Shown in pieces: positions 3,418-59,022 of a stretch of DNA of 64,000 nucleotides. The stretch is taken from NCBI RefSeq assembly GCF_057098645.1, contig NZ_CM169472.1, one strand, 5' to 3'. The position numbers and the translations under genes are program-made. The notes under the pieces are model-generated. The model was not told where the DNA came from, ran no database searches, and was given only the letters and a program-made list of their open reading frames with translations. How positions within the stretch are numbered: the stretch's first letter is position 1; each line of letters starts with the position of its first letter.

Positions 3418-5271
3418 CTACATCTTCTCAAGCAACTTCTTCACATCTTTGCCATTACGGGAATCTTTATTCCGCTCGGCCCAGTCATTCAGGCGACGTT
3501 TCGCTTCGTCCTGTAGATGTTTGCGCAGTAACTGATCCACTTGCAGGCTGTAATTGAGTTGCTGCCAGTTGCCATAAACCCGCAGCGGTACTGGCGTTTC
3601 TTTCAGGAAATCAATCAGTTTGCTTTCCCCGTTCCAGCCACCCACGACCCGAATATCAAACTGGGTGTCGCAGGTTTGATCTGCCAGATTCAACATGCCT
3701 TCCCCTGTCAGCGCCAGCACAGGCGATTGACCTTGCATGTCGTTTAACGTCACGACGCCATCCTTCAACGTCAAATCGGTGGTAAAGCGGTCAAGCCGCG
3801 TCACGTTATCAAAGTTTTCAGCGGCCTTCACATCACCGCCATTACGCTCTACCGCTTGCTGAATCATCTGCTGGAAGTTCATCCCTTCCATGCGCGTGTC
3901 GGTCATTTCGACATGTGCCTGTCCTTGCCAGTTGTGGCGGAATGCGTCGGCATCTATGTCAGCACCGGAGAAATCACCAGCCAGTGACATTTTTCCGGTC
4001 AACGAAATCGGATAGTTAAACGCCTTCAGAATGGTACCAATCTCAACGTTTTCCAGCCGTGGCTGGAAGTTTATCCGCGGATTTATTGATGTCGCGTCCA
4101 GCGTGCCCGGCAGTGAAACCTGTCCACCGTTAAGCTTGCCCTGCAGTTGAGTAATTTCCAGCAAACCCGACTTGTTGGTCATTTGCGTGGCAACATCTGT
4201 AAAATTCATTCCGCGCCAGCGCACGTTACTGACCTGCAACAAAATATCAGCCGTAAAGCCTTGCAGTCCCTGATAGGCCGGTTCATCAATACGCGAAGAA
4301 ATAACCGGGCGCGGCAACGTTGATTGGCTCTGCCCCTGCTGCGCGGCACCGTTTTCACCATTCGCTGTTTCATTAAGCGGGATGAGGTTGTCAAGATTCA
4401 GTTGCGGGAATTGCAGCCTCAGCTGCCATTCCGGTTTCTCTGTCAGCGTAACCTGTGCTTGCCCGCTCAGCGTACTGTCATTGGCGGTCAAGCTGATTTG
4501 GTTAAATGAAAGGCGTTTATGTGACTCCTGCCACTGGGCCTGGAAACTCCCCTGCCCCTGAATACCTTGTTTTGGTAAATCGGCACCCTGCAACTGCCAG
4601 TTAATTTGTTCAATAGCCGCCGTTAAATCATGCGGATAATCAGAAGCATCTACCGTACCGTTAAGGGATATCGTGAGATCGCGCTGATCGCGATTAACCC
4701 GCCCGGAAAACTCAAATGAGCCACGATGTTGGGGATCTTGTTCCATTTGCAGGCGGATATTGCGGATTGTCACCTGCTCGTCATCTTCATGCTGGAACAC
4801 CAGAACGCTGTCCGCCACCTTAAGACTGGATATATCAAACGACCATCCGCGATCGTCTGACAGATCCGGCAAGGTATTGTCGCGCGGTGCAACCGGAGCG
4901 TCTTCACTGCGCACCGCTTCCGTCTGCGGCGTCAGTTGGATCACTGCCCCTTTTAGCATCACCTGCTTAACGCTCAGTTGATGACTCAGTAGTGGTAAAA
5001 GCGCCACGTCCAGACGCATGTTGTCGGCGCGAACCAGTGGCTGGCTTGCGCCCTGGGCGGTGAGAGACATTCGCCCGGAGAGGATACTAAGCTGCGGCCA
5101 GACGTGCCAACGCAGTGGCCCGTCGAGCTGCAATTGATAACCGCTACGTGCAGCAACTTGCTTGACCATATAGTCGCGGAAATCATTCGGATTCACCAGC
5201 AACACTAACGCAGATAACCCGGCCACCAGCACGACCAGGAGTATCATCAGCGTCGTCAGAAATCGTCTCAT
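3418..5271 (-). CDS. asmA: AsmA, outer-membrane assembly protein (AsmA family)
   Basis: 617-aa ORF with N-terminal signal anchor (MRRFLTTLMILLVVLVAGLSALVLL), Gln-rich middle region, overall AsmA-like. Confidence 0.9.
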   Translation of the reverse strand: MRRFLTTLMILLVVLVAGLSALVLLVNPNDFRDYMVKQVAARSGYQLQLDGPLRWHVWPQLSILSGRMSLTAQGASQPLVRADNMRLDVALLPLLSHQLSVKQVMLKGAVIQLTPQTEAVRSEDAPVAPRDNTLPDLSDDRGWSFDISSLKVADSVLVFQHEDDEQVTIRNIRLQMEQDPQHRGSFEFSGRVNRDQRDLTISLNGTVDASDYPHDLTAAIEQINWQLQGADLPKQGIQGQGSFQAQWQESHKRLSFNQISLTANDSTLSGQAQVTLTEKPEWQLRLQFPQLNLDNLIPLNETANGENGAAQQGQSQSTLPRPVISSRIDEPAYQGLQGFTADILLQVSNVRWRGMNFTDVATQMTNKSGLLEITQLQGKLNGGQVSLPGTLDATSINPRINFQPRLENVEIGTILKAFNYPISLTGKMSLAGDFSGADIDADAFRHNWQGQAHVEMTDTRMEGMNFQQMIQQAVERNGGDVKAAENFDNVTRLDRFTTDLTLKDGVVTLNDMQGQSPVLALTGEGMLNLADQTCDTQFDIRVVGGWNGESKLIDFLKETPVPLRVYGNWQQLNYSLQVDQLLRKHLQDEAKRRLNDWAERNKDSRNGKDVKKLLEKM

Positions 5272-16044: not shown

Positions 16045-16227
16045 AAGAAATCCTTTCTTAGAGAATTATTGAGGTCCGGTATCATACCGATTGCAATAAT
16101 GAAATAAGAGCAAACGAAGAAACTTTCAGAATTAGGCCCGGCGGCGCAGAAAATTTTGCTATTCGCCTCGCAAGAACGGAGAGCCGTCGATTGACACTAA
16201 GGGCGGAGTGACATAATTACAGGAGTG

Positions 16228-16375
16228 AGGGTTAGGGAGAAGTTTCCCCCTCCCCCTGGTGTTCTTAGTAAGCCTGGAAGCTAATCACTAAGAGTATCAC
16301 CAGTATGATGACGTGCTTCATCATAACCCTTTCCTTATTTAAAAGCCCTCTTCTCCGGGAGAGGGTTCCCCGTTT
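16228..16375 (+). ncRNA. sibA: Sib antitoxin sRNA, copy 1 (boundaries approximate)
   Basis: Starts just downstream of TTGACA...TAATTA; fully antisense to ibs ORF 1; ends at hairpin ccctcttctccgggagaggg plus T-run. Confidence 0.55.
16265..16324 (-). CDS. ibsA: Ibs-type hydrophobic toxin peptide, copy 1 (MMKHVIILVILLVISFQAY)
   Basis: 19-codon ORF with tandem ATG start and strongly hydrophobic sequence typical of Ibs toxins. Confidence 0.6.
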   Translation of the reverse strand: MMKHVIILVILLVISFQAY

Positions 16376-16556
16376 TAGCGTCCCGCTGAAATCGTCGGCT
16401 TACCTCCTTTCGCCCTGAATGCAGTCTATCGCTGACTTGCGGATAAAATAGTTTCAAGTGTGATTATTGCGTAACGACTCGCAAAGAATATTTGCTGGCA
16501 GGATCGCAGACTGCAAAGCCTGCAGATTGACAATCTTATCGTGAAGGCATACTTTC

Positions 16557-16703
16557 AGGAGTGAGGGTAGAGCGGGGTTTCCCCCGCCCTGGTAGTCTTA
16601 GTAAGCGGGGAAGCTTATGACTAAGAGCACCACGATGATGAGTAGCTTCATCATGACCCTTTCCTTATTTAAGGCCCCTTCCTCGGGAGGGGCTTTCCCG
16701 TTT
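16557..16703 (+). ncRNA. sibB: Sib antitoxin sRNA, copy 2 (boundaries approximate)
   Basis: Promoter TTGACA-N17-TACTTT; antisense to ibs ORF 2; terminator hairpin plus T-run. Confidence 0.55.
16598..16654 (-). CDS. ibsB: Ibs-type toxin peptide, copy 2 (MMKLLIIVVLLVISFPAY)
   Basis: 18-codon hydrophobic ORF antisense to Sib copy 2. Confidence 0.6.
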   Translation of the reverse strand: MMKLLIIVVLLVISFPAY

Positions 16704-16884
16704 CAGCGTCCCGCTGAAATCTTCGGCTTACCTCCTTTCGCCCTGTATGCAGTCTATCGCTGACTTGCGGATAAAATAGTTTCAAGTGTGATTATTGCGT
16801 AACGACTCGCAAAGAATATTTGCTGGCAGGATCGCAGACTGCAAAGCCTGCAGATTGACAATCTTATCGTGAAGGCATACTTTC

Positions 16885-17031
16885 AGGAGTGAGGGTAGAG
16901 CGGGGTTTCCCCCGCCCTGGTAGTCTTAGTATGCTGGGTAGCTAATCACTAAGAGCACCACGATGATGAGTATCTTCATCATGACCCTTTCCTTATTTAT
17001 GGCCCCTTCCTCGGGAGGGGCTTTCCCGTTT
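16885..17031 (+). ncRNA. Sib antitoxin sRNA, copy 3 (boundaries approximate)
   Basis: Third repeat of the promoter/sRNA/terminator block. Confidence 0.5.
16926..16982 (-). CDS. Ibs-type toxin peptide, copy 3 (MMKILIIVVLLVISYPAY)
   Basis: 18-codon hydrophobic ORF in the third repeat; two residue differences from copy 2. Confidence 0.55.
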   Translation of the reverse strand: MMKILIIVVLLVISYPAY

Positions 17032-30274: not shown

Positions 30275-30358
30275 TTAATTTCGATTATTTTTCCCGGATG
30301 GAAAATTCTTAGAAACCGATCACATACAGCTGCATTTATTAAGGTTATCATCCGTTTC

Positions 30359-30445
30359 GCTGAAAAACATAACCCATAAAATGCTAGCTGTACCAGGAAC
30401 CACCTCCTTAGCCTGTGTAATCTCCCTTACACGGGCTTATTTTTT
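30359..30445 (+). ncRNA. cyaR: CyaR (RyeE) Hfq-dependent sRNA
   Basis: gctgaaaaacataacccataaaatgctagctgtaccaggaaccacctccttagcctgtgtaatctcccttacacgggcttattttttt: CCUCCU anti-SD seed, then terminator hairpin gcctgtgtaa/ttacacgggc plus U-tract; CRP half-site-like TCACA upstream. Confidence 0.75.
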
Positions 30446-47994: not shown

Positions 47995-48118
47995 TGCTCC
48001 TGCCATAACGTGAAGAAGCAATGACCTGGTGGTCCGTGACTTCCCTACGCTGGCATTATCCAGATCAGGTGATACGGGTATTTCTCAGCCTTCACGCAGA
48101 AGGGCACCCCGAGTCGTT
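47995..48118 (-). promoter_or_regulatory. TPP (THI-box) riboswitch in the thiM 5' leader
   Basis: Minus-strand leader reads ...ggggtgcccttctgcgtgaaggctgagaaatacccgtatcacctgatctggataatgccagcgtagggaa..., the conserved THI-element core (CUGAGA, ACCUGAUCUGGAUAAUGCCAGCG). Confidence 0.8.
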
Positions 48119-48212
48119 TGGTTGCGATGATAAATCGCAGAGGAGGATGGTAATGTCCAGCGCACGCGTTGTAAACGAGGAAAAACGGCAGTTTTACAAT
48201 CGCGTTAATAAA

Positions 48213-48605: not shown

Positions 48606-49430
48606 ATGACCGAATGTACAACTCTTCTTCAGCAAGGAAACGCCTGGTTCTTCATCCCCAGCGCCATCTTACTTGGTGCGCTTCATGGCCTGGAACCAGG
48701 GCACTCAAAAACGATGATGGCGGCGTTTATCATCGCCATCAAAGGCACCATTAAACAAGCGGTGATGCTCGGACTGGCAGCAACTATTTCGCATACCGCA
48801 GTGGTCTGGTTAATTGCCTTTGGCGGGATGGTGATCAGTAAGCGCTTTACTGCTCAATCAGCAGAACCGTGGCTCCAGCTGATTTCCGCAGTGATCATTA
48901 TTAGCACCGCGTTCTGGATGTTCTGGCGTACCTGGCGCGGCGAACGCAACTGGCTGGAGAATATGCACGGGCATGATTATGAGCATCATCATCACGATCA
49001 CGAAGATCACCACGACCATGGACATCATCACCATCACGAACATGGCGAGTATCAGGATGCCCATGCACGAGCCCATGCCAATGATATTAAACGACGCTTT
49101 GATGGTAGAGAGGTCACCAACTGGCAAATTTTGTTATTTGGCTTAACAGGTGGTCTTATCCCCTGTCCGGCAGCAATTACCGTGCTGTTGATTTGCATTC
49201 AGTTGAAAGCCCTGACACTGGGCGCAACACTGGTCGTCAGTTTCAGCATTGGCCTGGCGTTAACGCTGGTCACCGTAGGCGTTGGCGCAGCAATCAGCGT
49301 TCAGCAGGTCGCAAAACGCTGGAGCGGATTTAACACTCTCGCTAAACGCGCCCCCTATTTTTCCAGTCTGTTGATTGGCTTAGTTGGTGTGTATATGGGC
49401 GTACATGGCTTCATGGGCATAATGCGATAA
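48606..49430 (+). CDS. rcnA: Ni/Co efflux membrane protein RcnA with histidine-rich cytoplasmic loop
   Basis: 274-aa ORF with loop HGHDYEHHHHDHEDHHDHGHHHHHEHGEYQDAHARAHA between TM segments. Confidence 0.9.
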   Translation: MTECTTLLQQGNAWFFIPSAILLGALHGLEPGHSKTMMAAFIIAIKGTIKQAVMLGLAATISHTAVVWLIAFGGMVISKRFTAQSAEPWLQLISAVIIISTAFWMFWRTWRGERNWLENMHGHDYEHHHHDHEDHHDHGHHHHHEHGEYQDAHARAHANDIKRRFDGREVTNWQILLFGLTGGLIPCPAAITVLLICIQLKALTLGATLVVSFSIGLALTLVTVGVGAAISVQQVAKRWSGFNTLAKRAPYFSSLLIGLVGVYMGVHGFMGIMR

Positions 49431-49648
49431 CTCAATCCTTTAGGCTTGCATGTTATCTTCAGCCCAGGATGATTCTTAAATCAGCTATTTCCGCTGACTC
49501 TCTGCTCGCTAAGGATGCTTTTAGGGCATCCTTTCATTTACACTTTTTACGAAATCATGGGATCACTAACAAAATATCGCTTGTCAGTTATATTGTATGG
49601 CAGGAAAGATATGCGACTGATATTACAGATCCCCAAAGTGGAGAGTTT

Positions 49649-49987
49649 ATGACCATTAAAAATAAGATGTTGCTGGGTGTGCTTTTGCTGGTTACCAGTG
49701 CCGCCTGGGCCGCACCAGCCACCGCGGGTTCGACCAATACCTCAGGAATTTCTAAGTATGAGTTAAGTAGTTTCATTGCTGACTTTAAGCATTTCAAACC
49801 AGGTGATACCGTCCCAGAGATGTACCGCACCGATGAGTACAACATTAAGCAGTGGCAGTTACGTAACCTGCCCGCGCCTGATGCCGGGACGCACTGGACC
49901 TATATGGGTGGCGCGTACGTGTTGATCAGCGACACCGACGGTAAAATCATTAAAGCCTACGACGGTGAGATTTTTTATCATCGCTAA
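49649..49987 (+). CDS. rcnB: Periplasmic Ni/Co homeostasis protein RcnB
   Basis: ORF 49469..49987; likely start MTIKNKMLLGVLLLVTSAAWA (signal peptide) at 49649, 112 aa. Confidence 0.8.
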   Translation: MTIKNKMLLGVLLLVTSAAWAAPATAGSTNTSGISKYELSSFIADFKHFKPGDTVPEMYRTDEYNIKQWQLRNLPAPDAGTHWTYMGGAYVLISDTDGKIIKAYDGEIFYHR

Positions 49988-50012
49988 AAAAATCCCCCTC
50001 ATCATGAGGGGG
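49984..50012. terminator. Hairpin terminator between convergent rcnB and yehA (clear U-tract on the minus strand)
   Basis: aaaaaaa-tccccctcatcatgaggggga: 10-bp GC-rich stem flanked by an A-run (T-run on the minus strand). Confidence 0.6.
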
Positions 50013-50068
50013 AAATGCAGACACCTTGTTATTTTTTATTATTAGCCACTTGCTCGTCTTGCTTGTTA

Positions 50069-51103
50069 TTAGTCGTATTTCACGTTGATTAATGCGGTTG
50101 CCTCCAGTGCGCCAGATTTAACTTTGTTTGTATCGTAGACGTAGTAACTGGCTGTTATCGGAATTGAAACCGTTGTATCTGTAAGTTTTGACTTTGCCGC
50201 AATTTCTTTTAAATTTGTGTATCCTTTGCTGTTATCAGTGATATTTAAAAGTGTGACTGGCGAACCATTACTTTCAAGAATAAATCCTACGCCATTATCT
50301 TCCGCACCTTTCAGTATTGTGTTGCTGTTGGTTAACAAGTCAGAACTTGATAAATACACCTGCATTTTCCGTGATGTTTGATTTTGTTGACCTAATAAAT
50401 TTTTACAACGCAGAATAATATCCCCTTTTTTACTATTTATTGTTGCTTTGTTACCTGTGGCTGGTAATTGTGAAACGGGAATACCCTCTAAAGTAATTAA
50501 TAAATCGTCCGGTTTGCAGGTTGTGGTTATCGGGTTGTATGACAAGGTCAGATTAAAGGAATAGACACCTGCATTTTGTGCCAATGCATTTCTATAGCTA
50601 TTTACACATGCATCCCATGACTTGCCACCTAATAAACACAGTAGAAATTGTACTGCGGCACTCCCGCGTGTCGATGATGAAGCACTGGATAATGTCGCAA
50701 CACCATTAATCATCACTGAACCGCCGCCCCCCGCAGAAACATTCACTTTTGCATTACTGGCCGCAGGTGTCACCGTTACCGAATAACCATTGGTGAAACT
50801 GGTCTGATTATTTGACAACGTGATGTTATTTTTATTGGTCCATTCAAAATGTAAATTTAATTTAATGGTATCGTTATAAAGTCCAACAATAATATCCGAC
50901 GGGCTCATAGGGGTGATAGTATTTGTACTCACGCATGACGAATCATTAAAATTATGCTCATATGTCGCCATTTGTGTTTGAGTAAGTGCAAAATCCCCCT
51001 GAACAACCAAGTTGTGCTGAACAGATAACTCACTATAACATGCCGCATAGCTCACAGGCATAACCATCATCATTAATATAAATAGCATTATGCGAATTTC
51101 CAT
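50069..51103 (-). CDS. yehA: Fimbrial adhesin-like tip protein (chaperone-usher pilus)
   Basis: 344-aa ORF with signal peptide and Ser/Thr/Asn-rich beta-strand composition typical of fimbrial subunits. Confidence 0.75.
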   Translation of the reverse strand: MEIRIMLFILMMMVMPVSYAACYSELSVQHNLVVQGDFALTQTQMATYEHNFNDSSCVSTNTITPMSPSDIIVGLYNDTIKLNLHFEWTNKNNITLSNNQTSFTNGYSVTVTPAASNAKVNVSAGGGGSVMINGVATLSSASSSTRGSAAVQFLLCLLGGKSWDACVNSYRNALAQNAGVYSFNLTLSYNPITTTCKPDDLLITLEGIPVSQLPATGNKATINSKKGDIILRCKNLLGQQNQTSRKMQVYLSSSDLLTNSNTILKGAEDNGVGFILESNGSPVTLLNITDNSKGYTNLKEIAAKSKLTDTTVSIPITASYYVYDTNKVKSGALEATALINVKYD

Positions 51104-51118
51104 AGAACCACCTGACTA

Positions 51119-53599
51119 TTACTGGCAAATATAATTTCTACTTTCATCAATCTCTTTACCGAAGGTGATTGTGCATGAAAGTCCTTGTTGCTTATCAATT
51201 GCTACATTAACCGATGGCGGTACTTCATTGGTGCGAATAAATAACTGGCTTCCCTGACCGACAACGCCAATATTATGACCATGGATATCATTGACTTCAT
51301 AACCAAACATTAATGGTTGCCCATCCGCTCTTAACGCTTTTATAAACCAGGGCTTGCGCTGATCGGTATCAAAATTAACCAGTACAACCGCGCCGCGATA
51401 AGGGGCGGCAATTTTCCGGTTGCCACGTAATTCTGCTTCGCTATCGCTTTGCGACACATCCAGCATCAGGTGATTTTCCCGATAAGGTGTCATTCCGTCG
51501 TATACCACCACTCCATTACGGTTTGTTGTGCGATATTTTTGCCCATTGACATAAGCATCTTTAATTCCTGGGGCATTCATCACAGCAAACGTTTCGGAAA
51601 GACGGTTCGCCAGATTAACGCCACCCGACCAGGCGACAATGCCCCCAGAAACACTGGCTCCAGCCTGTCGATAAGTACTCGACTGACTATAACTGCCATT
51701 CACTGTCGCAACCGGCGCGTTCCAGGTCAAATTCGCCCCAGCTGTCGTTTCATTTCCCTGATGCTGATAACTCAGGTTGACCCCATAGTTAAACTGATCC
51801 CGGCTTCCAACGGTTCCTGATAATCCCGTATTATTTGAGGCAAACCCCTGATCATCAAACGTCGTTGAGTTAGACATATATATTTGCCGACGAGGCGTCG
51901 TAACGTCATCACCCCAATCAAAGGGAATCGATATAAAAATATTAAATCGTTTCTCTTCATGATGATTCTCGTCATAAGCCTGGCTTGCCGCGAGGGTATA
52001 GCTTATCCGCCGCCAGTTATTGGAATAACTCAACTGATAATCCTTACTGCTGCCGCTACGTCCCCAGTAATCTCGCCATAACGTACTTAAGGACACAGAA
52101 CCCCAGCCTTCTGGCAATGACTGGCTCATATTGGCAGAAAAGCTATTTTTACGGCCAAAATCGTTCTGGTAATAATCGGCAATGTCATAGACATCGTTTT
52201 CATCACGGCGATAATTATCTTTATTGTTTGCCCAAACGTGATCATTAAATGTCCGGTAATCACGCGATGAATAACGCCAGGCCGCAAGACCAAAACGCGT
52301 CGACGTTTGGCTCACAAATTTGTTGTAGGCAATTTGATAACTTTGCCCGTCAAACACATCGCCGTTGTCTTGTTTACTATGCGACTTAGTGGCATCGACG
52401 GAAATGGCACCAATGCGTGTATTCCAGCCAGTCCCCAAAGTAAACGCGTAATAATTATTCGCGACCATCGAGCCGCCATACAGCGTCAATAAATTATTAA
52501 AACCATACTGATAACCCACCTGGACAAATTCACTTTGTTTGCTCGCCCCTTCAATATGGCTACGACCCGCCGCAAAATCATATTTCGACACGCCGGGTTG
52601 CAGCATATTTGGCACCGCTGCATAAGGCACCAGATAGGTGGTTACCGAACCGTCCGCCTCTTTCACGCTGACATCAAGATCTGCTCCACCACCGGCCAAC
52701 TGCAAATCTGTAATCGCGAACGGGCCAGGAGGAACCTCTTTCTGATAAACGACAAAACCATTCTGTTCAATAGTTACCAGCGCGTTACTCTGAGCAATCC
52801 CCTGCACCCGTGGCGTAAAATTTTGTTTCGAGTTAGGCAACATCTGCATATCACGAAACAACCGCACACCTCTGAAGCGAACAGAATCAAAAATATCGCT
52901 TGATGTGTACATATCACCCACGCGAAGCGTGCCGAGAAGTTGGGCAAATCCACGTTCCAGATACAGGGTATTGCTTTTCCACACCCCTGGATTGTTATTT
53001 GTTTTACTGAAACTGGCATCAGAATGCAGTTGCCACCCCAGTAAATTTAACCCGCTGTTAAAACGTACATATGTACTCTTGTTATTACCCGACGCTTTAT
53101 AGTCGCTGTAATACTGACTCAGATAATAAGAGGTATAAAACGCATTAATACCCCGCTCCCAGTTTTCCGGTGGAACATAGCCACTTTCCAGTTCTTCCAC
53201 CCAGGCCTGCGGGACACTGAAATCGAGACGAAAAACCCCGATATCCCAGGTATAGCTCCCACCCTGAACAAGTTGCTCAAATGTTAAACATTGCTTACCG
53301 CTGGCGAAGTTATCGCTATTAATGCCTAACCGCTTGATAACTTCTCTTGATAAACATGTTTCTTGCGGGTTGTCTTTAACAATAATCTCATATTTCCCGC
53401 GCCATTGCTTATTGACATAAATATCGATGTCATACTGCCCCGGTAAGGGTTGATTATCATCAAGACGAATATTTGCAACCTGCTGGTCTTTCATTCCACC
53501 TATCATAAAATGGGTATCAAAGGTTTCTTCAGCTGCATAAGCTTCAATGCCGAGCAATAACGCTACGATTGCTGATGCAAGTGGGGTCATTCTCAACAT
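51119..53599 (-). CDS. yehB: Fimbrial outer-membrane usher
   Basis: ORF 51119..53614; likely start MLRMTPLASAIVALLLGIEAYA (53599); about 826 aa, usher-like. Confidence 0.85.
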   Translation of the reverse strand: MLRMTPLASAIVALLLGIEAYAAEETFDTHFMIGGMKDQQVANIRLDDNQPLPGQYDIDIYVNKQWRGKYEIIVKDNPQETCLSREVIKRLGINSDNFASGKQCLTFEQLVQGGSYTWDIGVFRLDFSVPQAWVEELESGYVPPENWERGINAFYTSYYLSQYYSDYKASGNNKSTYVRFNSGLNLLGWQLHSDASFSKTNNNPGVWKSNTLYLERGFAQLLGTLRVGDMYTSSDIFDSVRFRGVRLFRDMQMLPNSKQNFTPRVQGIAQSNALVTIEQNGFVVYQKEVPPGPFAITDLQLAGGGADLDVSVKEADGSVTTYLVPYAAVPNMLQPGVSKYDFAAGRSHIEGASKQSEFVQVGYQYGFNNLLTLYGGSMVANNYYAFTLGTGWNTRIGAISVDATKSHSKQDNGDVFDGQSYQIAYNKFVSQTSTRFGLAAWRYSSRDYRTFNDHVWANNKDNYRRDENDVYDIADYYQNDFGRKNSFSANMSQSLPEGWGSVSLSTLWRDYWGRSGSSKDYQLSYSNNWRRISYTLAASQAYDENHHEEKRFNIFISIPFDWGDDVTTPRRQIYMSNSTTFDDQGFASNNTGLSGTVGSRDQFNYGVNLSYQHQGNETTAGANLTWNAPVATVNGSYSQSSTYRQAGASVSGGIVAWSGGVNLANRLSETFAVMNAPGIKDAYVNGQKYRTTNRNGVVVYDGMTPYRENHLMLDVSQSDSEAELRGNRKIAAPYRGAVVLVNFDTDQRKPWFIKALRADGQPLMFGYEVNDIHGHNIGVVGQGSQLFIRTNEVPPSVNVAIDKQQGLSCTITFGKEIDESRNYICQ

Positions 53600-53614
53600 A
53601 GGCAGCTCCTGCAA

Positions 53615-54334
53615 TTAAATTTTGTCACTAATATAGTTGCCATGGTCATCGATAATGGTCAGATGCCAGTTATTTGCATTATTACTTTTGACATTAACAC
53701 TCTGACTTTCTAAGGGGGCAATCATAATAGTTTCATAATTGACTTTGACATTATTAGCTTTGACATCCGAAATCGTCACCCAATTAGCTGAGTCATTTTT
53801 TATCACCAAACCATTGCCACTGCGATTTACCAGCAATTTTTTAAATGTCGCTTTATTTACCGGAGCAATACCCGCTGGCCGGTAAAACAACTTAATTCTG
53901 TTTTGCATCGCAAACTTCAGTGCATTCTTACCTTCTTGCTCTGGACTATTTGGTGGAATATCCAGAACATTCAGATAAAAAATGCTTTCTTTATTAGTGG
54001 GCAGTTTATTCGGCATAATTTTGATTTTTACTTGCTGCCCGGAATTTGCCCCTATTTTTGCCACTGGTGGCGTTAACATGAAAGGAACCTGAATTTTTTC
54101 TGGTGGTAATGACGTATCGCCATCATCAATCCACGCCTGCAGCAGCGAAGAACGGTTTCCCTGGTTCATCAACTGCACCATCACTTCTTTATTTTCTGCC
54201 GGGTAAATAATGCGCGTCCCGTAGATAACAATTCCGGCATGTGCAGGAAGGACCATAGAAAAAATGAGTAAAGATAATAATCCTTTCATTTTAATGCCTC
54301 TTAAATTAAAAGGCCGCCATGGGATAGCGGCCAT
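53615..54334 (-). CDS. yehC: Periplasmic fimbrial chaperone (PapD-like)
   Basis: 239-aa ORF (start may be the internal MKGLLSLLIF); PapD-like fold features. Confidence 0.8.
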   Translation of the reverse strand: MAAIPWRPFNLRGIKMKGLLSLLIFSMVLPAHAGIVIYGTRIIYPAENKEVMVQLMNQGNRSSLLQAWIDDGDTSLPPEKIQVPFMLTPPVAKIGANSGQQVKIKIMPNKLPTNKESIFYLNVLDIPPNSPEQEGKNALKFAMQNRIKLFYRPAGIAPVNKATFKKLLVNRSGNGLVIKNDSANWVTISDVKANNVKVNYETIMIAPLESQSVNVKSNNANNWHLTIIDDHGNYISDKI

Positions 54335-54368
54335 GTTTATTACCTGGAGAAACTTACAATTTTATTTA

Positions 54369-54911
54369 TTAATCCTGCGCCACACGCATAACCAGAGAAG
54401 ATAACACATAACCTGATTGCACTGAGTTATCTGTCAGTTTCAGGTATTTTGCTTTAAACGGAATAGCATATTGACCTTCCGCTGTTTTATAACTCTCAAT
54501 GTTAAAAGGTGCAGAAACATCCAGGACATCGCTGTTATCACCTAAATAGAGATAGTAACCCACGGTATCGTTGCTACTGGCTATCGCCTTATCGTTACCG
54601 GTTATTTTATCGTTGGTAATCAACGAGAGTTTTACACCAGCAACTTCTTTCGGGCAGCTAATTTTTAACATGCTGCTGGTTACACCGACTGCATCATCAT
54701 AGGTAGAATATTTAGCTTTACCTTCAAAGACACTGGTTGGTACAGTCGGCATATTAATACTTACTGAATCACCACCCGCTTCGAATTTACACGGAGATTC
54801 TGCAATATTCCCCTTAATAGTTAATGTTCCGGTATCAACGTCTGCAGCAAATACTCCAGCGCTCATAAAAAAAGAAGAAAAGACAGCGGCAGCAATAATT
54901 GAACGTTTCAT
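54369..54911 (-). CDS. yehD: Major fimbrial subunit
   Basis: 180-aa ORF with signal peptide MKRSIIAAAVFSSFFMSAGVFA and fimbrillin-like C-terminus. Confidence 0.8.
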   Translation of the reverse strand: MKRSIIAAAVFSSFFMSAGVFAADVDTGTLTIKGNIAESPCKFEAGGDSVSINMPTVPTSVFEGKAKYSTYDDAVGVTSSMLKISCPKEVAGVKLSLITNDKITGNDKAIASSNDTVGYYLYLGDNSDVLDVSAPFNIESYKTAEGQYAIPFKAKYLKLTDNSVQSGYVLSSLVMRVAQD

Positions 54912-55130
54912 AATATGTTCCTTAATAAAATTTATTTTTGGTTGTTAAGAGTCTGTATCTCTTGGAAACAAATTTCTCACATCAAAAAAGTTGCCGCAAT
55001 GTAAACACATTGTTTTATTGATTTAAAACAAATTAACCATTGCAATATAAATACAAAAAATATTTAAGAGTATTAACTGTTTATCGCATCTATCAATTAA
55101 TGTAGATTTATGTAAATGGTATTGTTGATA

Positions 55131-55174
55131 TCAATAAAAAAGCCAAAATCATTTATATAAATGATTTCGGCTTT
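55131..55174 (-). terminator. Candidate rho-independent terminator downstream of yehE
   Basis: Minus strand: aaagccgaaatcatttatataaatgattttggcttt hairpin followed by TTTTTTATT. Confidence 0.5.
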
Positions 55175-55203
55175 CTAAATGCAATTAAAATCAGGTTGCC
55201 AAA

Positions 55204-55485
55204 TTAATCGTAGCGATTTAACACGATTCGACGTTTGCTATCGCTACCTGCAACAACCACTTCTGTCGTTACACCTTTGACGGGCGAAGAAAACAGATGA
55301 CGGGTGTCAACATTATACGTTAACTGACCACAATGCTGTTGAGGTTGACCATTAACCATAGCCATACTGCATGTTGGGGGACTGATCCTGCCATTAATCG
55401 CTAATGTGGCAGTCTCTGAAGAGAATGCGGGAGAAGCCAATCCATAGGCAAGAAAAATAATTCCTGACAGCCAATACTTATTCAT
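55204..55485 (-). CDS. yehE: Small secreted protein of unknown function
   Basis: 93-aa ORF with signal peptide MNKYWLSGIIFLAYGLASPAFS. Confidence 0.7.
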   Translation of the reverse strand: MNKYWLSGIIFLAYGLASPAFSSETATLAINGRISPPTCSMAMVNGQPQQHCGQLTYNVDTRHLFSSPVKGVTTEVVVAGSDSKRRIVLNRYD

Positions 55486-55747
55486 TGAACGTTATCCCTG
55501 TAGTAAAGGTTATGCCTAGATAGAATGAGTGCATAACAAACTATAGCTGTACATCCACTACACAGCCACGAAGGATGATAATGAAGCATTGCCTGTATGA
55601 TCAATCGACTTTGTAGAGTTTCGGACGAAGGTCCGCAGAATATTCGCAGTATTAAATAAGTGTTCATTAATGCGGCAAAAACTAATACACCGCATCAATG
55701 TAACATCTCTGCGGTGTATGAAGAATAACCAGAATGGTTAATAGGCG

Positions 55748-56857
55748 TTAGACCGCGCGGAAGGAAATCTCGCCTGGAATGACTTCACCCTGCCAGTAGA
55801 GCTGAGCTGCAACGCGGTCAGCCAGCTGGCGGTAGATAGCGGTAAATTCGCTCTCCGGACGGCTGATAACCGTTGGCGTACCTTTATCGAGATCCTCACG
55901 TAAGGAGATGTGTAACGGCATCTGCCCCAGCAGCTGTGTATGGTATTTTTCAGCCAGTTTCTCTGCACCACCGGTACCGAAAATCGGTTCATGGTGACCA
56001 CAGTTACTGCAAATATGCACACTCATGTTCTCGACAATACCGAGCACCGGAACCTCGACTTTCTCGAACATCACAATGCCTTTTTTCGCATCGATCAGCG
56101 CGATGTCCTGCGGGGTGGTGACCACGACTGCACCGGTTACTGGAATGTTTTGCGCCAGCGTCAATTGAATGTCACCGGTGCCTGGCGGCATATCAAGCAC
56201 CAGATAGTCGAGATCCGGCCACAAGGTTTCCTGCAACATCTGCATTAACGCCTTGCTCGCCATCGGTCCACGCCACACCATCGCATTGTCGTCAGTGACC
56301 AGATAACCAATTGAATTGGTTGCCAGGCCATGAGACATAATCGGTGCCATATGGGTACCGTCCGGCGAAGTTGGACGCTGATTTTCTGCGCCCAACATTG
56401 TTGGGATTGATGGGCCGTAGATATCGGCGTCCAGAATGCCGACTTTCGCCCCTTCTGCCGCCAGCGCCAGTGCCAGGTTTACCGCCGTGGACGATTTACC
56501 CACGCCGCCTTTACCGGAACTCACCGCGATAATGTTCTTCACACCGTTAATTCCCGGCTGATTCTTCACGCGTTTCAGAGTGGCTATGTTATGCGACAGT
56601 TTCCAGTCGATAGCTTTCGCCCCGGTGATGCGCAGCAGTTCGGCGCTACATTGCTCTTTTAACTCTTCGAACGCGCTATGCCAGACAAACGGCATAACCA
56701 GTTCCACATGCAACGTGTCGTCCATCCAGGCGACATGGTGCAACGCTTTCAGCGTGGTGAGGTTATGCTTCAGGGTTGGGTGCTGAAAATTGGCCAGTGT
56801 CCCGGCGACCATTGCGCGCAAGGCTTCTGGTGATTTGGCCTGGGATTGTTCGTTCAT
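55748..56857 (-). CDS. apbC: Fe-S cluster carrier ATPase ApbC/Mrp
   Basis: ORF 55748..56887; likely start MNEQSQAKSPEAL (56857), 369 aa; deviant Walker A SSGKGGVGKSS and CxxC (CSNCGH). Confidence 0.9.
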   Translation of the reverse strand: MNEQSQAKSPEALRAMVAGTLANFQHPTLKHNLTTLKALHHVAWMDDTLHVELVMPFVWHSAFEELKEQCSAELLRITGAKAIDWKLSHNIATLKRVKNQPGINGVKNIIAVSSGKGGVGKSSTAVNLALALAAEGAKVGILDADIYGPSIPTMLGAENQRPTSPDGTHMAPIMSHGLATNSIGYLVTDDNAMVWRGPMASKALMQMLQETLWPDLDYLVLDMPPGTGDIQLTLAQNIPVTGAVVVTTPQDIALIDAKKGIVMFEKVEVPVLGIVENMSVHICSNCGHHEPIFGTGGAEKLAEKYHTQLLGQMPLHISLREDLDKGTPTVISRPESEFTAIYRQLADRVAAQLYWQGEVIPGEISFRAV

Positions 56858-56988
56858 CCCGACTCCTTTTTTGTATAGATAAACCATCAGCTGATAGTTT
56901 ACCTGAAGAATATAGAGAAGTACTTACTTAACATTTTCCCATTTGGTACTATCTAACCCCTTTTCACTATTAAGAAGTAATGCCTACT

Positions 56989-59022
56989 ATGACTCAAGTC
57001 GCGAAGAAAATTCTGGTGACGTGCGCACTGCCGTACGCTAACGGCTCAATCCACCTCGGCCATATGCTGGAGCACATCCAGGCTGATGTCTGGGTCCGTT
57101 ACCAGCGAATGCGCGGCCACGAGGTCAACTTCATCTGCGCCGACGATGCCCACGGTACACCGATCATGCTGAAAGCTCAGCAGCTTGGTATCACCCCGGA
57201 GCAGATGATTGGCGAAATGAGTCAGGAGCATCAGACTGATTTCGCAGGCTTTAACATCAGCTATGACAACTATCACTCGACGCACAGCGAAGAGAACCGC
57301 CAGTTGTCAGAACTTATCTACTCTCGCCTGAAAGAAAACGGTTTTATTAAAAACCGCACCATCTCTCAGCTGTACGATCCGGAAAAAGGCATGTTCCTGC
57401 CGGACCGTTTTGTGAAAGGCACCTGCCCGAAATGTAAATCCCCGGATCAATACGGCGATAACTGCGAAGTCTGCGGCGCGACCTACAGCCCGACTGAACT
57501 GATCGAGCCGAAATCGGTGGTTTCTGGCGCTACGCCGGTAATGCGTGATTCTGAACACTTCTTCTTTGATCTGCCCTCTTTCAGCGAAATGTTGCAGGCA
57601 TGGACCCGCAGCGGTGCGTTGCAGGAGCAGGTGGCAAATAAAATGCAGGAGTGGTTTGAATCTGGCCTGCAACAGTGGGATATCTCCCGCGACGCCCCTT
57701 ACTTCGGTTTTGAAATTCCGAACGCGCCGGGCAAATATTTCTACGTCTGGCTGGACGCACCGATTGGCTACATGGGTTCTTTCAAGAATCTGTGCGACAA
57801 GCGCGGCGACAGCGTAAGCTTCGATGAATACTGGAAGAAAGACTCCACCGCCGAGCTGTACCACTTCATCGGTAAAGATATTGTTTACTTCCACAGCCTG
57901 TTCTGGCCTGCCATGCTGGAAGGCAGCAACTTCCGCAAGCCGTCCAACCTGTTTGTTCATGGCTATGTGACGGTGAACGGCGCAAAGATGTCCAAGTCTC
58001 GCGGCACCTTTATTAAAGCCAGCACCTGGCTGAATCATTTTGACGCAGACAGCCTGCGTTACTACTACACTGCGAAACTCTCTTCGCGCATTGATGATAT
58101 CGATCTCAACCTGGAAGATTTCGTTCAGCGTGTGAATGCCGATATCGTTAACAAAGTGGTTAACCTGGCCTCCCGTAATGCGGGCTTTATCAACAAGCGT
58201 TTTGACGGCGTGCTGGCAAGCGAACTGGCTGACCCGCAGTTGTACAAAACCTTCACTGATGCCGCTGAAGTGATTGGTGAAGCGTGGGAAAGCCGTGAAT
58301 TTGGTAAAGCCGTGCGCGAAATCATGGCGCTGGCTGATCTGGCTAACCGCTATGTCGATGAACAGGCTCCGTGGGTGGTGGCGAAACAGGAAGGCCGCGA
58401 TGCCGACCTGCAGGCAATTTGCTCAATGGGCATCAACCTGTTCCGCGTACTGATGACTTACCTGAAGCCGGTACTGCCGAAACTGACCGAGCGTGCAGAA
58501 GCATTCCTCAATACGGAACTGACCTGGGATGGTATCCAGCAACCGCTGCTGGGCCACAAAGTGAATCCGTTCAAGGCGCTGTATAACCGCATCGATATGA
58601 GGCAGGTTGAAGCACTGGTGGAAGCCTCTAAAGAAGAAGTAAAAGCCGCTGCCGCGCCGGTAACTGGCCCGCTGGCAGATGATCCGATTCAGGAAACCAT
58701 CACCTTTGACGACTTCGCTAAAGTTGACCTGCGCGTGGCGCTGATTGAAAACGCAGAGTTTGTTGGAGGTTCTGACAAACTGCTGCGCCTGACGCTGGAT
58801 CTCGGCGGTGAAAAACGCAATGTCTTCTCCGGTATTCGTTCTGCTTACCCGGATCCGCAGGCACTGATTGGTCGTCACACCATTATGGTGGCTAACCTGG
58901 CACCACGTAAAATGCGCTTCGGTATCTCTGAAGGCATGGTGATGGCTGCCGGTCCTGGCGGGAAAGATATTTTCCTGCTAAGCCCGGATGCCGGTGCTAA
59001 ACCGGGTCATCAGGTGAAATAA
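56989..59022 (+). CDS. metG: Methionyl-tRNA synthetase
   Basis: ORF 56980..59022; likely start [11 protein letters not shown] (56989), 677 aa; HIGH-type motif (SIHLGHM), Zn knuckle CPKC...CEVC, KMSKS motif. Confidence 0.95.

What the first reader, a model, noticed from the sequence alone, without database searches (positions are those of the whole stretch)
50069..55485. Cryptic chaperone-usher fimbrial operon yehABCD(E) with an internal terminator-like hairpin after yehE
Adhesin-like, usher, chaperone and major-subunit genes lie on the minus strand in a region more AT-rich than its flanks. A long AT-rich stretch at 54912-55203 precedes yehD. A hairpin plus U-tract on the minus strand at 55131-55174 lies between yehE and yehD, suggesting yehE is transcribed separately or attenuated. 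The composition and extended AT-rich leader are what one expects of a horizontally acquired, probably silenced fimbrial locus.
Basis: inference. Interest (0 to 1): 0.3.

Follow-up and report, generated by a model that had tools for sequence, protein, structure and literature searches.

The report
Yeh fimbrial operon and yehE terminator

Summary
Window 50069-55485 (minus strand) is E. coli yehA (adhesin), yehB (usher), yehC (chaperone), yehD (major subunit) and yehE (DUF2574), between rcnB and mrp/metG. The block has the lowest GC of the 64-kb window (0.415 against 0.518). The yehE-yehD spacer is the most AT-rich 292 bp in the window (GC 0.243).

The hairpin at 55131-55174 is real. It has a 13-bp core plus A/U extension (-14 to -20 kcal/mol) followed by UUUUUUAUU, about 30 nt after the yehE stop. 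It is kept by compensatory base changes across Escherichia, Citrobacter and Superficieibacter: 7 of 16 pairs covary and 0 of 500 shuffles match. It stays with yehE even where yehE is divergent from the operon. It is therefore best read as the intrinsic terminator of yehE.

Published data agree. RegulonDB lists yehE as its own unit. Full-length transcripts cover mrp or mrp-yehE but none reach yehD. The spacer is an H-NS-bound "promoter island", and yehDCBA is cryptic and H-NS-repressed. "Horizontally acquired" needs a caveat: the module and its AT-richness are ancestral to several genera.

Everything essential is already known, so interest is low. Side notes: a second conserved hairpin after yehD overlaps a probably mis-annotated yehC start, and YehE has a pilin-like N-terminus.

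The parts
49993..50013 (-). Terminator-like hairpin (TCCCCCTCATGATGAGGGGGA followed by TTTTTTT) after yehA. It ends the yehDCBA operon and lies between the convergent genes rcnB and yehA.
   Evidence: Consensus scan and fold. A sub-threshold Rfam Hrs1 hit at the same place is only this hairpin.
50069..51103 (-). yehA, the two-domain tip adhesin (called YehD in UTI89 nomenclature).
   Evidence: Pfam Fimbrial matches residues 184-344. NCBIfam PRK15252 equivalog. Residues 21-193 match PDB 9n4g/9n4h/9n4i at E = 1e-107 to 1e-109. K-12 gene b2108.
51119..53599 (-). yehB, the outer-membrane usher. K-12 annotates 826 aa; the mechanical ORF runs on to a TTG at 53614.
   Evidence: Pfam PapC_N, Usher and PapC_C. 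NCBIfam PRK15217 aligns from residue 6. K-12 gene b2109.
53615..54289 (-). yehC, the periplasmic chaperone. The start is probably the ATG at 54289 (MKGLL...), not the annotated 54334.
   Evidence: Pfam PapD_N and PapD_C. The StcB and PRK15218 models begin at residue 16. A conserved AAGAGG Shine-Dalgarno plus ATG is present in all Escherichia species, while the upstream ATG is absent in E. whittamii.
54303..54332 (-). Intercistronic G+C-rich hairpin GGCCGCTAT-CCC-ATGGCGGCC followed by TTTTAATTT, between yehD and yehC. It is a partial terminator or an mRNA 3' stabiliser.
   Evidence: Consensus scan. In 7 Escherichia sequences 96.8% of cells are paired and 2 pairs show compensatory change. A hairpin of unrelated sequence occupies the same position in Citrobacter and Superficieibacter loci, often without a T-run.
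54369..54911 (-). yehD, the major fimbrial subunit.
   Evidence: Pfam Fimbrial. NCBIfam PRK15220 'fimbrial protein YehD' is the best hit but, at 110.3 bits, lies below its curated cut-off of 136. K-12 gene b2111.
54918..54923 (-). AAGGAA Shine-Dalgarno of yehD, within the published CsrA-binding site of the yehD 5' UTR.
   Evidence: Invariant across genera. CsrA gel shift in EHEC, PMC11287998.
54912..55203 (-). yehE-yehD spacer, GC 0.243. It is the published H-NS-bound 'promoter island' and holds the yehD promoter and leader.
   Evidence: Composition. PMC3661553 Table 1, entry 2190229_357 yehD/yehE.
54990..55050 (-). Conserved block (...TTTAAATCAATAAAACAA..GTTTACATTGCGGCAAC), about 80-140 bp upstream of the yehD ATG. 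It is the presumed yehD promoter or regulator site.
   Evidence: Alignment across Escherichia, Citrobacter and Superficieibacter, including a locus where yehE is divergent. The function is inferred.
55131..55176 (-). The hairpin of the finding, read as the intrinsic terminator of yehE. The core stem is 55171-55142 and the U-run is 55141-55133.
   Evidence: Fold. Covariation: 93.8% of cells paired, 7 of 16 pairs with compensatory change, 0 of 500 shuffles as high. Hairpins lie after yehE orthologues in other genera.
55204..55485 (-). yehE, a 93-aa secreted DUF2574 protein with a pilin-like N-terminus.
   Evidence: Pfam DUF2574, E = 1.6e-52. hhalign against YehD residues 1-47, probability 91%. 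dN/dS 0.14-0.25.
55486..55620 (-). Region upstream of yehE. It holds a promoter-like site (TTGATC-18-TATCAT, 55604-55575) and lies approximately under a published sigmaS-RNAP ChIP-seq peak.
   Evidence: Consensus scan. PMC4447067 peak at 2190800-2190949 in U00096.2 coordinates. The coordinate conversion of about +1978 is from my own knowledge, so the overlap is approximate.
55676..55717 (-). mrp (apbC) terminator: ACACCGCA...TGCGGTGT followed by ATTAGTTTTTG.
   Evidence: Sequence. SMRT-Cappable-seq end at K-12 2192991, which is window 55680: 56 of 90 reads end there and 9 read through. It matches a RegulonDB terminator.

Best explanation
The region is the E. coli core-genome Yeh (gamma-4, Salmonella Stc-type) chaperone-usher fimbrial module. 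The minus strand is organised as follows:
1. mrp ends at its own terminator.
2. yehE is a separate small unit. It is fed partly by read-through from mrp and probably also by a sigmaS-bound promoter of its own.
3. yehE ends about 30 nt after its stop codon at an intrinsic terminator, the hairpin at 55131-55174.
4. About 230 bp of extremely AT-rich DNA follows. It is bound by H-NS and contains the yehD promoter and the CsrA-bound leader.
5. yehDCBA is then transcribed as one operon. A second hairpin after yehD is likely to favour the major-subunit message.
6. A terminator follows yehA.

Mechanism of the hairpin: the nascent RNA folds into a 13-18-bp stem whose base is GCC/GGC, immediately followed by UUUUUUAUU, and RNA polymerase is released.

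The consequence is inferred. Transcription from the housekeeping mrp promoter and from yehE is kept out of the H-NS-silenced yehD promoter region. Expression of yehE is thereby uncoupled from that of the cryptic fimbrial operon.

Shown here: gene identities, composition, the structure and its covariation. From the literature: silencing, H-NS binding and transcript extents. Inferred: actual termination efficiency and the insulating role.
For: - Gene identities.
- Composition.
- Hairpin stability well beyond shuffles: (z = -5.4). Energies and U-run.
- Compensatory evolution within Escherichia: the fourth pair is G.U, G-C, U-A or A-U, and one strain has C-G changed to U-A.
- Covariation over 11 sequences from several genera: 93.8% of cells paired, 7 of 16 pairs with both sides changed, 0 of 500 shuffles as high, slid controls 35-55%.
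- In every other lineage examined except the Klebsiella loci L013/L014 (weak hairpin only), a hairpin lies 25-45 nt after the stop of the yehE orthologue, followed by a T-run or T-rich tail that is weak in Superficieibacter L012. The stems often have a different sequence.
- In Superficieibacter L015/L016 yehE is divergent from the fimbrial genes and still carries its own hairpin.
- K-12 has G-C where this strain has G.U.
- The hairpin stretch is present in at least 5248 of 5426 E. coli genomes.
- Transcripts: RegulonDB lists b2112 as a separate operon. SMRT-Cappable-seq operon variants are b2113 and b2113|b2112 only.
- A sigmaS ChIP peak is assigned to yehE.
- Silencing and H-NS binding.
- yehD-to-yehA is a single transcript, and CsrA binds the yehD leader.
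Against: - I found no direct 3'-end mapping at the hairpin. Supplements of three 3'-end or terminus studies either held no text or contained no yehE entry.
- The SMRT-Cappable-seq evidence rests on few read-through reads: 9 of 90. Their median extension of 284 bp ends inside yehE.
- The stem is A/U-rich, with 4 G-C pairs, so efficiency could be moderate.
- The simple terminator scan did not list the hairpin.
- One paper writes of a 'yehEDCBA operon', though without transcript evidence for that unit.
- In Superficieibacter L012 the tail after the hairpin is poor in U.
Confidence: 0.85

Rival explanations
1. The hairpin is a regulated attenuator in a long yehE-yehD co-transcript. On this view yehEDCBA is one operon, and conditional read-through of the hairpin controls fimbrial expression.
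For: yehE is always next to a Yeh-type operon, and usually on the same strand with a spacer of about 270-300 bp. One paper calls the locus yehEDCBA. The A/U-rich stem may allow leakage.
Against: I see no alternative antiterminator pairing that is conserved; the 30 nt before the hairpin and the roughly 90 nt after it are the least conserved parts of the spacer. A block conserved across genera lies downstream of the hairpin, where a yehD promoter would be. In L015/L016 yehE is inverted and keeps the hairpin, while yehD keeps the conserved block. No b2112|b2111 transcript is listed in the SMRT-Cappable-seq operon table. RegulonDB separates the units.
Confidence: 0.08
2. The hairpin is mainly a 3' stabilising stem-loop, a barrier to exonucleases for the yehE message, and not a site of termination. 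Transcription would instead be ended further downstream by Rho and H-NS in the AT-rich spacer.
For: Hairpins after yehE in some lineages have weak U-runs (L012, L017). The analogous hairpin after yehD is conserved without a conserved T-run. From general knowledge, H-NS-bound AT-rich DNA is a known context for Rho-dependent termination.
Against: In all seven Escherichia sequences aligned (and in E. fergusonii), the stem is followed directly by 6-7 U then AUU. That is the canonical intrinsic-terminator arrangement, and the U-run is invariant while flanking bases vary.
Confidence: 0.06
3. The inverted repeat acts at the DNA level, as an operator for a dimeric regulator, or it is a chance palindrome in AT-rich DNA.
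For: The loop-proximal half-sites ATCATT / AATGAT are well conserved across genera. AT-rich DNA is rich in chance palindromes.
Against: The outer half of the stem changes by paired substitutions that preserve pairing but not sequence. That pattern fits an RNA structure and not a protein-recognition site. G.U pairs occur, which pair only in RNA. Shuffles never fold as well. Position and strand relative to the yehE stop are kept even where the sequence is unrelated.
Confidence: 0.02

Closest known systems
E. coli K-12 yehDCBA (Yeh fimbriae) and Salmonella stcABCD, gamma-4 chaperone-usher fimbriae
   Same: This is that locus. The genes, order, lengths and neighbours (rcnB, then yehABCDE, then mrp and metG) are the same. 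The Yeh/Stc-specific NCBIfam models match. The adhesin receptor-binding domain matches PDB 9n4g/h/i. The literature describes the locus as cryptic, H-NS-repressed, SlyA-inducible and core-associated.
   Different: Nothing of substance. The strain is not K-12: there are 65 substitutions over 5.7 kb, one of which turns a G-C pair of the hairpin into G.U.
Canonical Rho-independent (intrinsic) terminators of E. coli
   Same: There is a stem-loop with a G-C base, directly followed by a U-run of 6 then AUU. It lies about 30 nt after a stop codon on the coding strand. Its energy of -14 to -20 kcal/mol is within the usual range. Upstream A residues can pair with the U-run.
   Different: The stem is long and A/U-rich, with 4 G-C pairs among 17-18. 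I found no experimental 3' end at the site.
Intercistronic stem-loops after the major-subunit gene of fimbrial operons, such as pap and fim (from my own knowledge)
   Same: The second hairpin, after yehD at 54312-54332, sits exactly where such elements occur, between the major-subunit and assembly genes. It is conserved as a structure across genera.
   Different: That is not the hairpin of the finding. The yehE hairpin lies upstream of the major-subunit gene and ends a different gene.
H-NS-bound 'promoter islands' (Panyukov and Ozoline 2013, PMC3661553)
   Same: The yehE-yehD spacer is one of the 78 listed islands. It is marked as H-NS-bound and as associated with predicted foreign genes. It is the most AT-rich stretch of the window.
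   Different: The paper does not discuss the terminator at the upstream edge of the island or the conserved block within it.

Membership tests
Chaperone-usher fimbrial operon (Yeh/Stc, gamma-4 clade) | Outer-membrane usher with PapC_N, Usher and PapC_C domains | tested here: met
   Pfam E = 2e-196, 4e-34 and 2.5e-8. NCBIfam PRK15217 at 1756 bits, above its cut-off of 933.
Chaperone-usher fimbrial operon (Yeh/Stc, gamma-4 clade) | PapD-like periplasmic chaperone | tested here: met
   Pfam PapD_N and PapD_C. The StcB and PRK15218 NCBIfam models align over their full length but score 342.6 and 318.8 bits, below their curated cut-offs of 500 and 372.
Chaperone-usher fimbrial operon (Yeh/Stc, gamma-4 clade) | Major pilin subunit, plus a two-domain adhesin with a C-terminal pilin domain | tested here: met
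   YehD matches Pfam Fimbrial above its cut-off; the NCBIfam YehD equivalog is the top hit but, at 110.3 bits, is below its cut-off of 136. YehA has Fimbrial at residues 184-344. Its N-terminal residues 21-193 match the solved Yeh adhesin receptor-binding domain.
Chaperone-usher fimbrial operon (Yeh/Stc, gamma-4 clade) | Fixed chromosomal position next to mrp and metG | tested here: met
   K-12 annotation. The neighbours are the same in C. farmeri, C. freundii and an unnamed relative. The literature reports the same position in Salmonella and Citrobacter.
Intrinsic (Rho-independent) terminator | Stable stem-loop in the RNA of the coding strand, shortly after a stop codon | tested here: met
   Energy -14.4 to -19.8 kcal/mol, beginning about 27-30 nt after the yehE stop; z = -5.4 against shuffles.
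Intrinsic (Rho-independent) terminator | U-rich tract immediately 3' of the stem | tested here: met
   UUUUUUAUU at 55141-55133. It is invariant in the seven Escherichia sequences aligned. It is weaker in some other genera.
Intrinsic (Rho-independent) terminator | Structure maintained by selection (covariation) | tested here: met
   7 of 16 pairs have compensatory changes and 93.8% of cells are paired. 0 of 500 shuffles reach this, and slid controls reach 35-55%.
Intrinsic (Rho-independent) terminator | Transcript 3' ends at the U-run, in vivo or in vitro | not testable with these tools
   No 3'-end data were found for this site. The only evidence is indirect: mrp-yehE transcripts are listed, and none includes yehD.
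H-NS-silenced, xenogeneic-type locus | AT-richness relative to the genome | tested here: met
   GC 0.415 against 0.518. The spacer is 0.243. GC3 is 0.33-0.44 against 0.62.
H-NS-silenced, xenogeneic-type locus | H-NS occupancy, and derepression without H-NS | not testable with these tools
   Literature only. H-NS ChIP data are summarised in PMC3661553. H-NS repression is cited from Korea et al. 2010. The locus is a static EPOD, an extended protein occupancy domain.
H-NS-silenced, xenogeneic-type locus | Evidence of horizontal acquisition | tested here: inconclusive
   Composition-based predictors flag the locus. However, the module is syntenic and equally AT-rich in Escherichia, Citrobacter and relatives. 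It is described as ancestral to Escherichia and Salmonella.
DUF2574 / YehE family | Full-length match to the family profile | tested here: met
   PF10836 at 175.7 bits over positions 1-93 of 93. The family has only 25 representatives at 50% identity among 1.84 billion proteins. All those named are Enterobacteriaceae.

The most novel reading that the evidence does not exclude
YehE may not be a bystander. It could be a pilin-derived mini-subunit that modulates Yeh pilus biogenesis, for example by occupying the YehC chaperone or the usher, or by capping or priming the fibre. It is expressed from its own sigmaS-linked, terminator-insulated unit, so its level is set independently of the silenced operon.

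What the evidence shows:
- It has a signal peptide and an N-terminal strand motif homologous to those of fimbrial subunits.
- It has two conserved cysteines and a conserved C-terminal ...IVLNRYD with a penultimate Tyr.
- It is under purifying selection.
- In nearly every locus examined it is next to a Yeh-type operon, whatever the other neighbours or its orientation. The exception is Klebsiella L013/L014, where none was called nearby.

The evidence does not exclude this reading, and it does not show any function.
Probability: 0.15. Interest if true: 0.45.

Novelty: already known. Interest (0 to 1): 0.1.

Why it matters
It matters little beyond good annotation. The locus, its cryptic state, its H-NS silencing and its AT-rich promoter island are all published. 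yehE is already treated as a separate transcription unit. This work adds comparative proof that the hairpin after yehE is a selected RNA structure, almost certainly its terminator. That explains why transcription reading through from the housekeeping gene mrp does not enter the silenced fimbrial promoter region.

Three by-products could help people working on Yeh/Stc pili:
- the start codon of yehC is probably annotated 15 codons too far upstream, inside a conserved intercistronic hairpin;
- a regulatory block upstream of yehD is conserved across genera;
- YehE has a pilin-like N-terminus and is tightly linked to the operon.

Tried and rejected
- **Rfam.** A permissive scan of 49400-57000 found no family at the hairpin or in the spacer. 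The only hit was a sub-threshold Hrs1 match on the rcnB/yehA terminator. I rejected the idea of a known riboswitch or sRNA.
- **Published 3' ends.** Adams 2021 supplements have no yehE entry. No supplementary text is held for Conway 2014 or Dar and Sorek 2018. The TRS paper has no entry. Thomason 2015 is not held.
- **Consensus terminator scan.** It missed the hairpin. I did not take that as evidence against it, because direct folding and covariation are stronger evidence.
- **Genome-collection scan with YehE peptides.** It returned only Escherichia. Other genera were reached through the exhaustive HMMER search and exact look-ups instead.
- **YehE structure.** The AlphaFold model is of moderate confidence: pLDDT 69, with a small five-strand sheet over residues 39-92. 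Foldseek against the PDB gave nothing significant; the best hit was E = 1.8. A profile search of PDB sequences gave only weak FimG N-terminal matches at E = 0.2. No fold assignment is claimed.
- **H-NS high-affinity motif (TCGATAAATT, up to 2 mismatches).** It gave two matches in the 1-kb stretch scanned (54800-55800), against a window average of 1.3 per kb. That is uninformative.
- **The 61-aa ORF at 55482-55667, overlapping the yehE start.** It has no family match and I treated it as spurious.
- **A repeated-element (REP-like) origin for the hairpin.** Rejected, because the hairpin is unique in the window.

Full report
**What is there**

The ORF list, Pfam and NCBIfam show five genes on the minus strand between 50069 and 55485:
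- a 344-aa two-domain adhesin, with the Fimbrial domain at residues 184-344;
- an usher (PapC_N, Usher, PapC_C);
- a PapD-type chaperone;
- a 180-aa fimbrial subunit;
- a 93-aa DUF2574 protein.

The K-12 record names these yehA, yehB, yehC, yehD and yehE (b2108-b2112). They lie between rcnR-rcnA-rcnB and mrp-metG, with identical lengths and spacing. A 1.5-kb piece of the region covers at least 80% of the query in 5280 of 5426 complete E. coli genomes. The strain is not K-12: there are 65 substitutions over 5.7 kb. The N-terminal domain of YehA matches the recently solved Yeh adhesin receptor-binding domain, PDB 9n4g/h/i. That protein is called YehD in UTI89 nomenclature (PMC12778044).

**Composition**

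- The block has GC 0.415 against 0.518 for the rest of the window. It is the lowest of all 5.4-kb stretches in the window.
- GC3 is 0.33-0.44 in the yeh genes against 0.62 in mrp and metG.
- The 292-bp yehE-yehD spacer (54912-55203) has GC 0.243. It is the most AT-rich stretch of that length in the 64 kb.

**The hairpin**

On the minus strand the sequence AGAAAGCCGAAAUCAUUU-AUAU-AAAUGAUUUUGGCUUUUU folds into a 13-bp core, G55171 to C55142, with one G.U pair. A/U pairs extend it to 17-18 bp. The tail UUUUUUAUU lies at 55141-55133. The stem starts about 27-30 nt after the yehE stop codon.
- In its 91-nt context it folds at -23.9 kcal/mol with z = -5.4; none of 200 shuffles folds as well.
- Alone it is -14.4 kcal/mol (core) to -19.8 kcal/mol (extended).
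- It is unique in the window.
- No Rfam family matches it.
- The simple consensus scan did not list it. I attribute this to the scan extending the stem into the U-run, which is an inference.

**Is the hairpin selected?**

I collected yehE loci from other Escherichia species. Through an exhaustive profile search and exact look-ups I also collected loci from Citrobacter farmeri, C. freundii, E. fergusonii, two Superficieibacter lineages, a Klebsiella lineage and one unnamed relative.

Within Escherichia the stem is kept by paired substitutions. The fourth pair is G.U here, G-C in K-12 and one Escherichia clade, U-A in another E. coli lineage, and A-U in E. whittamii and a cryptic clade. One strain changes the neighbouring C-G to U-A.

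Over 11 alignable sequences:
- 93.8% of cells form pairs;
- 7 of 16 pairs show changes on both sides;
- 0 of 500 shuffles reach any of the five measures;
- sliding the partner by 1-3 columns drops pairing to 35-55%.

In lineages where the sequence is not alignable, a different hairpin followed by a T-rich tail still sits 25-45 nt after the stop. This holds for C. freundii and the second Superficieibacter lineage. The Klebsiella loci L013/L014 show only a weak hairpin there. G.U pairs and pairing-preserving changes indicate an RNA structure and not a protein-binding palindrome.

**To which gene does the hairpin belong?**

In Superficieibacter L015/L016 the yehE-like gene is inverted, so it is divergent from the fimbrial genes. 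It still carries a strong hairpin after its stop. Meanwhile the fimbrial subunit gene keeps, on its own side, a block that is conserved in all genera...TTTAAATCAATAAAACAA..GTTTACATTGCGGTAAC, about 80-140 bp upstream of the ATG. The hairpin is therefore the 3' end of yehE. It is not part of the yehD leader, and the yehD control region lies downstream of it.

**Published transcript and chromatin data**

- *SMRT-Cappable-seq (PMC6131387).* Transcripts start at the mrp promoter, K-12 2194200. 56 of 90 reads end at 2192991, and 9 read through. That position is window 55680, the T-run of the mrp terminator hairpin at 55676-55717. The operon variants listed are b2113 and b2113|b2112, and none includes b2111. 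The RegulonDB column shows b2112 as its own operon.
- *SigmaS-RNAP ChIP-seq.* A peak is assigned to yehE (PMC4447067). By my approximate conversion of old K-12 coordinates, it lies over the yehE start and the 130 bp upstream. A promoter-like site occurs there.
- *The yehD/yehE spacer.* It is one of 78 'promoter islands' that bind RNA polymerase and H-NS but give little transcript. It is flagged as associated with predicted foreign genes (PMC3661553).
- *yehDCBA.* It is cryptic, H-NS-repressed and raised by SlyA (PMC5797941; PMC3559732). It lies in a static protein-occupancy domain. In EHEC it is a single yehD-to-yehA transcript whose leader binds CsrA at the Shine-Dalgarno region (PMC11287998). 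The AAGGAA there is invariant across genera.

I found no direct 3'-end mapping at the yehE hairpin.

**Best explanation**

The hairpin is the intrinsic terminator of yehE. It ends both yehE's own transcripts and the read-through from mrp, just before the H-NS-bound, extremely AT-rich yehD promoter region.
- Shown: the structure, its U-run, its position and its covariation.
- From the literature: the transcript extents and the silencing.
- Inferred: the efficiency of termination and an insulating role, that is, protecting the silenced promoter from incoming polymerases.

Rivals, with my estimated probabilities:
- a regulated attenuator in a yehEDCBA co-transcript (0.08);
- a pure stabiliser, with Rho/H-NS termination further downstream (0.06);
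- a DNA-level palindrome or a chance match (0.02).

All three fit the inverted-yehE loci, the covariation or the invariant U-run less well.

**On 'horizontally acquired'**

However, the module sits at the same place in Escherichia, Salmonella and Citrobacter. In every genus examined the fimbrial genes have GC 0.41-0.49 and the spacer 0.28-0.30, next to flanks of 0.52-0.56. The AT-richness is thus an old, maintained property and not a trace of recent transfer.

**Other anatomy noticed**

*Second hairpin.* A G+C-rich hairpin, GGCCGCUAU-CCC-AUGGCGGCC followed by UUUUAAUUU, lies at 54303-54332 between yehD and yehC. Within Escherichia it has two compensatory pairs, and 96.8% of cells are paired. 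Hairpins of unrelated sequence occupy the same position in other genera, often without a T-run. This is the place where fimbrial operons classically carry a stem-loop that favours the major-subunit message; that statement is from my own knowledge.

*yehC start.* The annotated yehC start (54334) lies inside this hairpin. The Yeh/Stc chaperone models begin at residue 16. A conserved AAGAGG plus ATG sits at 54289. The upstream ATG is missing in E. whittamii. The true start is therefore probably 54289.

*YehE.*
- It is under purifying selection: dN/dS is 0.14-0.25, against 0.06-0.10 for yehD.
- It belongs to a tiny family confined to Enterobacteriaceae.
- It is next to a Yeh-type operon in nearly every locus, whatever the other neighbours. 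The exception is the Klebsiella loci L013/L014, where no fimbrial genes were called within the 3.5 kb fetched on either side.
- Its first 45 residues are homologous to the signal peptide and N-terminal strand of fimbrial subunits: hhalign gives 91% probability against YehD, and there is a weak FimG match.
- The rest models as a small five-strand sheet, pLDDT 69, with no significant structural neighbour.
- Its function remains unknown.

**Verdict**

The locus and its silencing are already well described, so novelty is 'already known' and interest is low. The only mildly open question is what YehE does.

Noticed in passing
window 54303-54334 (minus strand): A G+C-rich hairpin plus T-run lies between yehD and yehC. 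It is conserved as a structure across genera. The annotated yehC start codon (54334) lies inside it. A conserved Shine-Dalgarno plus ATG at 54289, and family models that begin at residue 16, indicate the annotated start is 15 codons too far upstream.
   Followed up: yes
window 54990-55050 (minus strand): A block of about 60 bp (TTTAAATCAATAAAACAA..GTTTACATTGCGGCAAC) lies 80-140 bp upstream of yehD. It is conserved from Escherichia to Citrobacter and Superficieibacter, even where yehE is inverted. It is probably the yehD promoter or a regulator site, but no regulator has been identified.
   Followed up: partly
window 55204-55485 (minus strand): YehE (DUF2574) has a pilin-like signal peptide and N-terminal strand, two conserved cysteines and a conserved C-terminal IVLNRYD. 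Its dN/dS is 0.14-0.25. It is next to a Yeh-type operon in nearly every locus examined; the Klebsiella loci L013/L014 showed none nearby. The AlphaFold model is a small beta-sheet with no PDB neighbour.
   Followed up: partly
window 16191-16997 (plus strand): Three tandem Sib antitoxin RNA copies (Rfam SIB_RNA, 141-145 bits each). As far as I recall, K-12 has two (sibA and sibB) at this locus, so this strain seems to carry an extra repeat.
   Followed up: no
L015 and L016 (Superficieibacter), about 3830-3900: A hexanucleotide array (CTGCTT)n begins right after the terminator hairpin of the yehE-like gene. It interrupts the assembly in L015, which has a run of N there.
   Followed up: no
window 55676-55717 (minus strand): The mrp (apbC) terminator hairpin. 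A published full-length-transcript end at K-12 2192991 maps to window 55680 in its T-run, with about 10% read-through into yehE.
   Followed up: yes
window 49986-50031: A hairpin is shared by the convergent genes rcnB and yehA (TCCCCCTCATGATGAGGGGGA). It gives a sub-threshold Rfam Hrs1 hit (26 bits against a gathering score of 56), which I take to be only the terminator.
   Followed up: partly
window 48025-48121, 30357-30442, 40100-40170 and 1062-1100: Ordinary known RNA elements found by the whole-window Rfam scan: the TPP riboswitch (thiM leader), CyaR, naRNA4 and a JUMPstart element.
   Followed up: no
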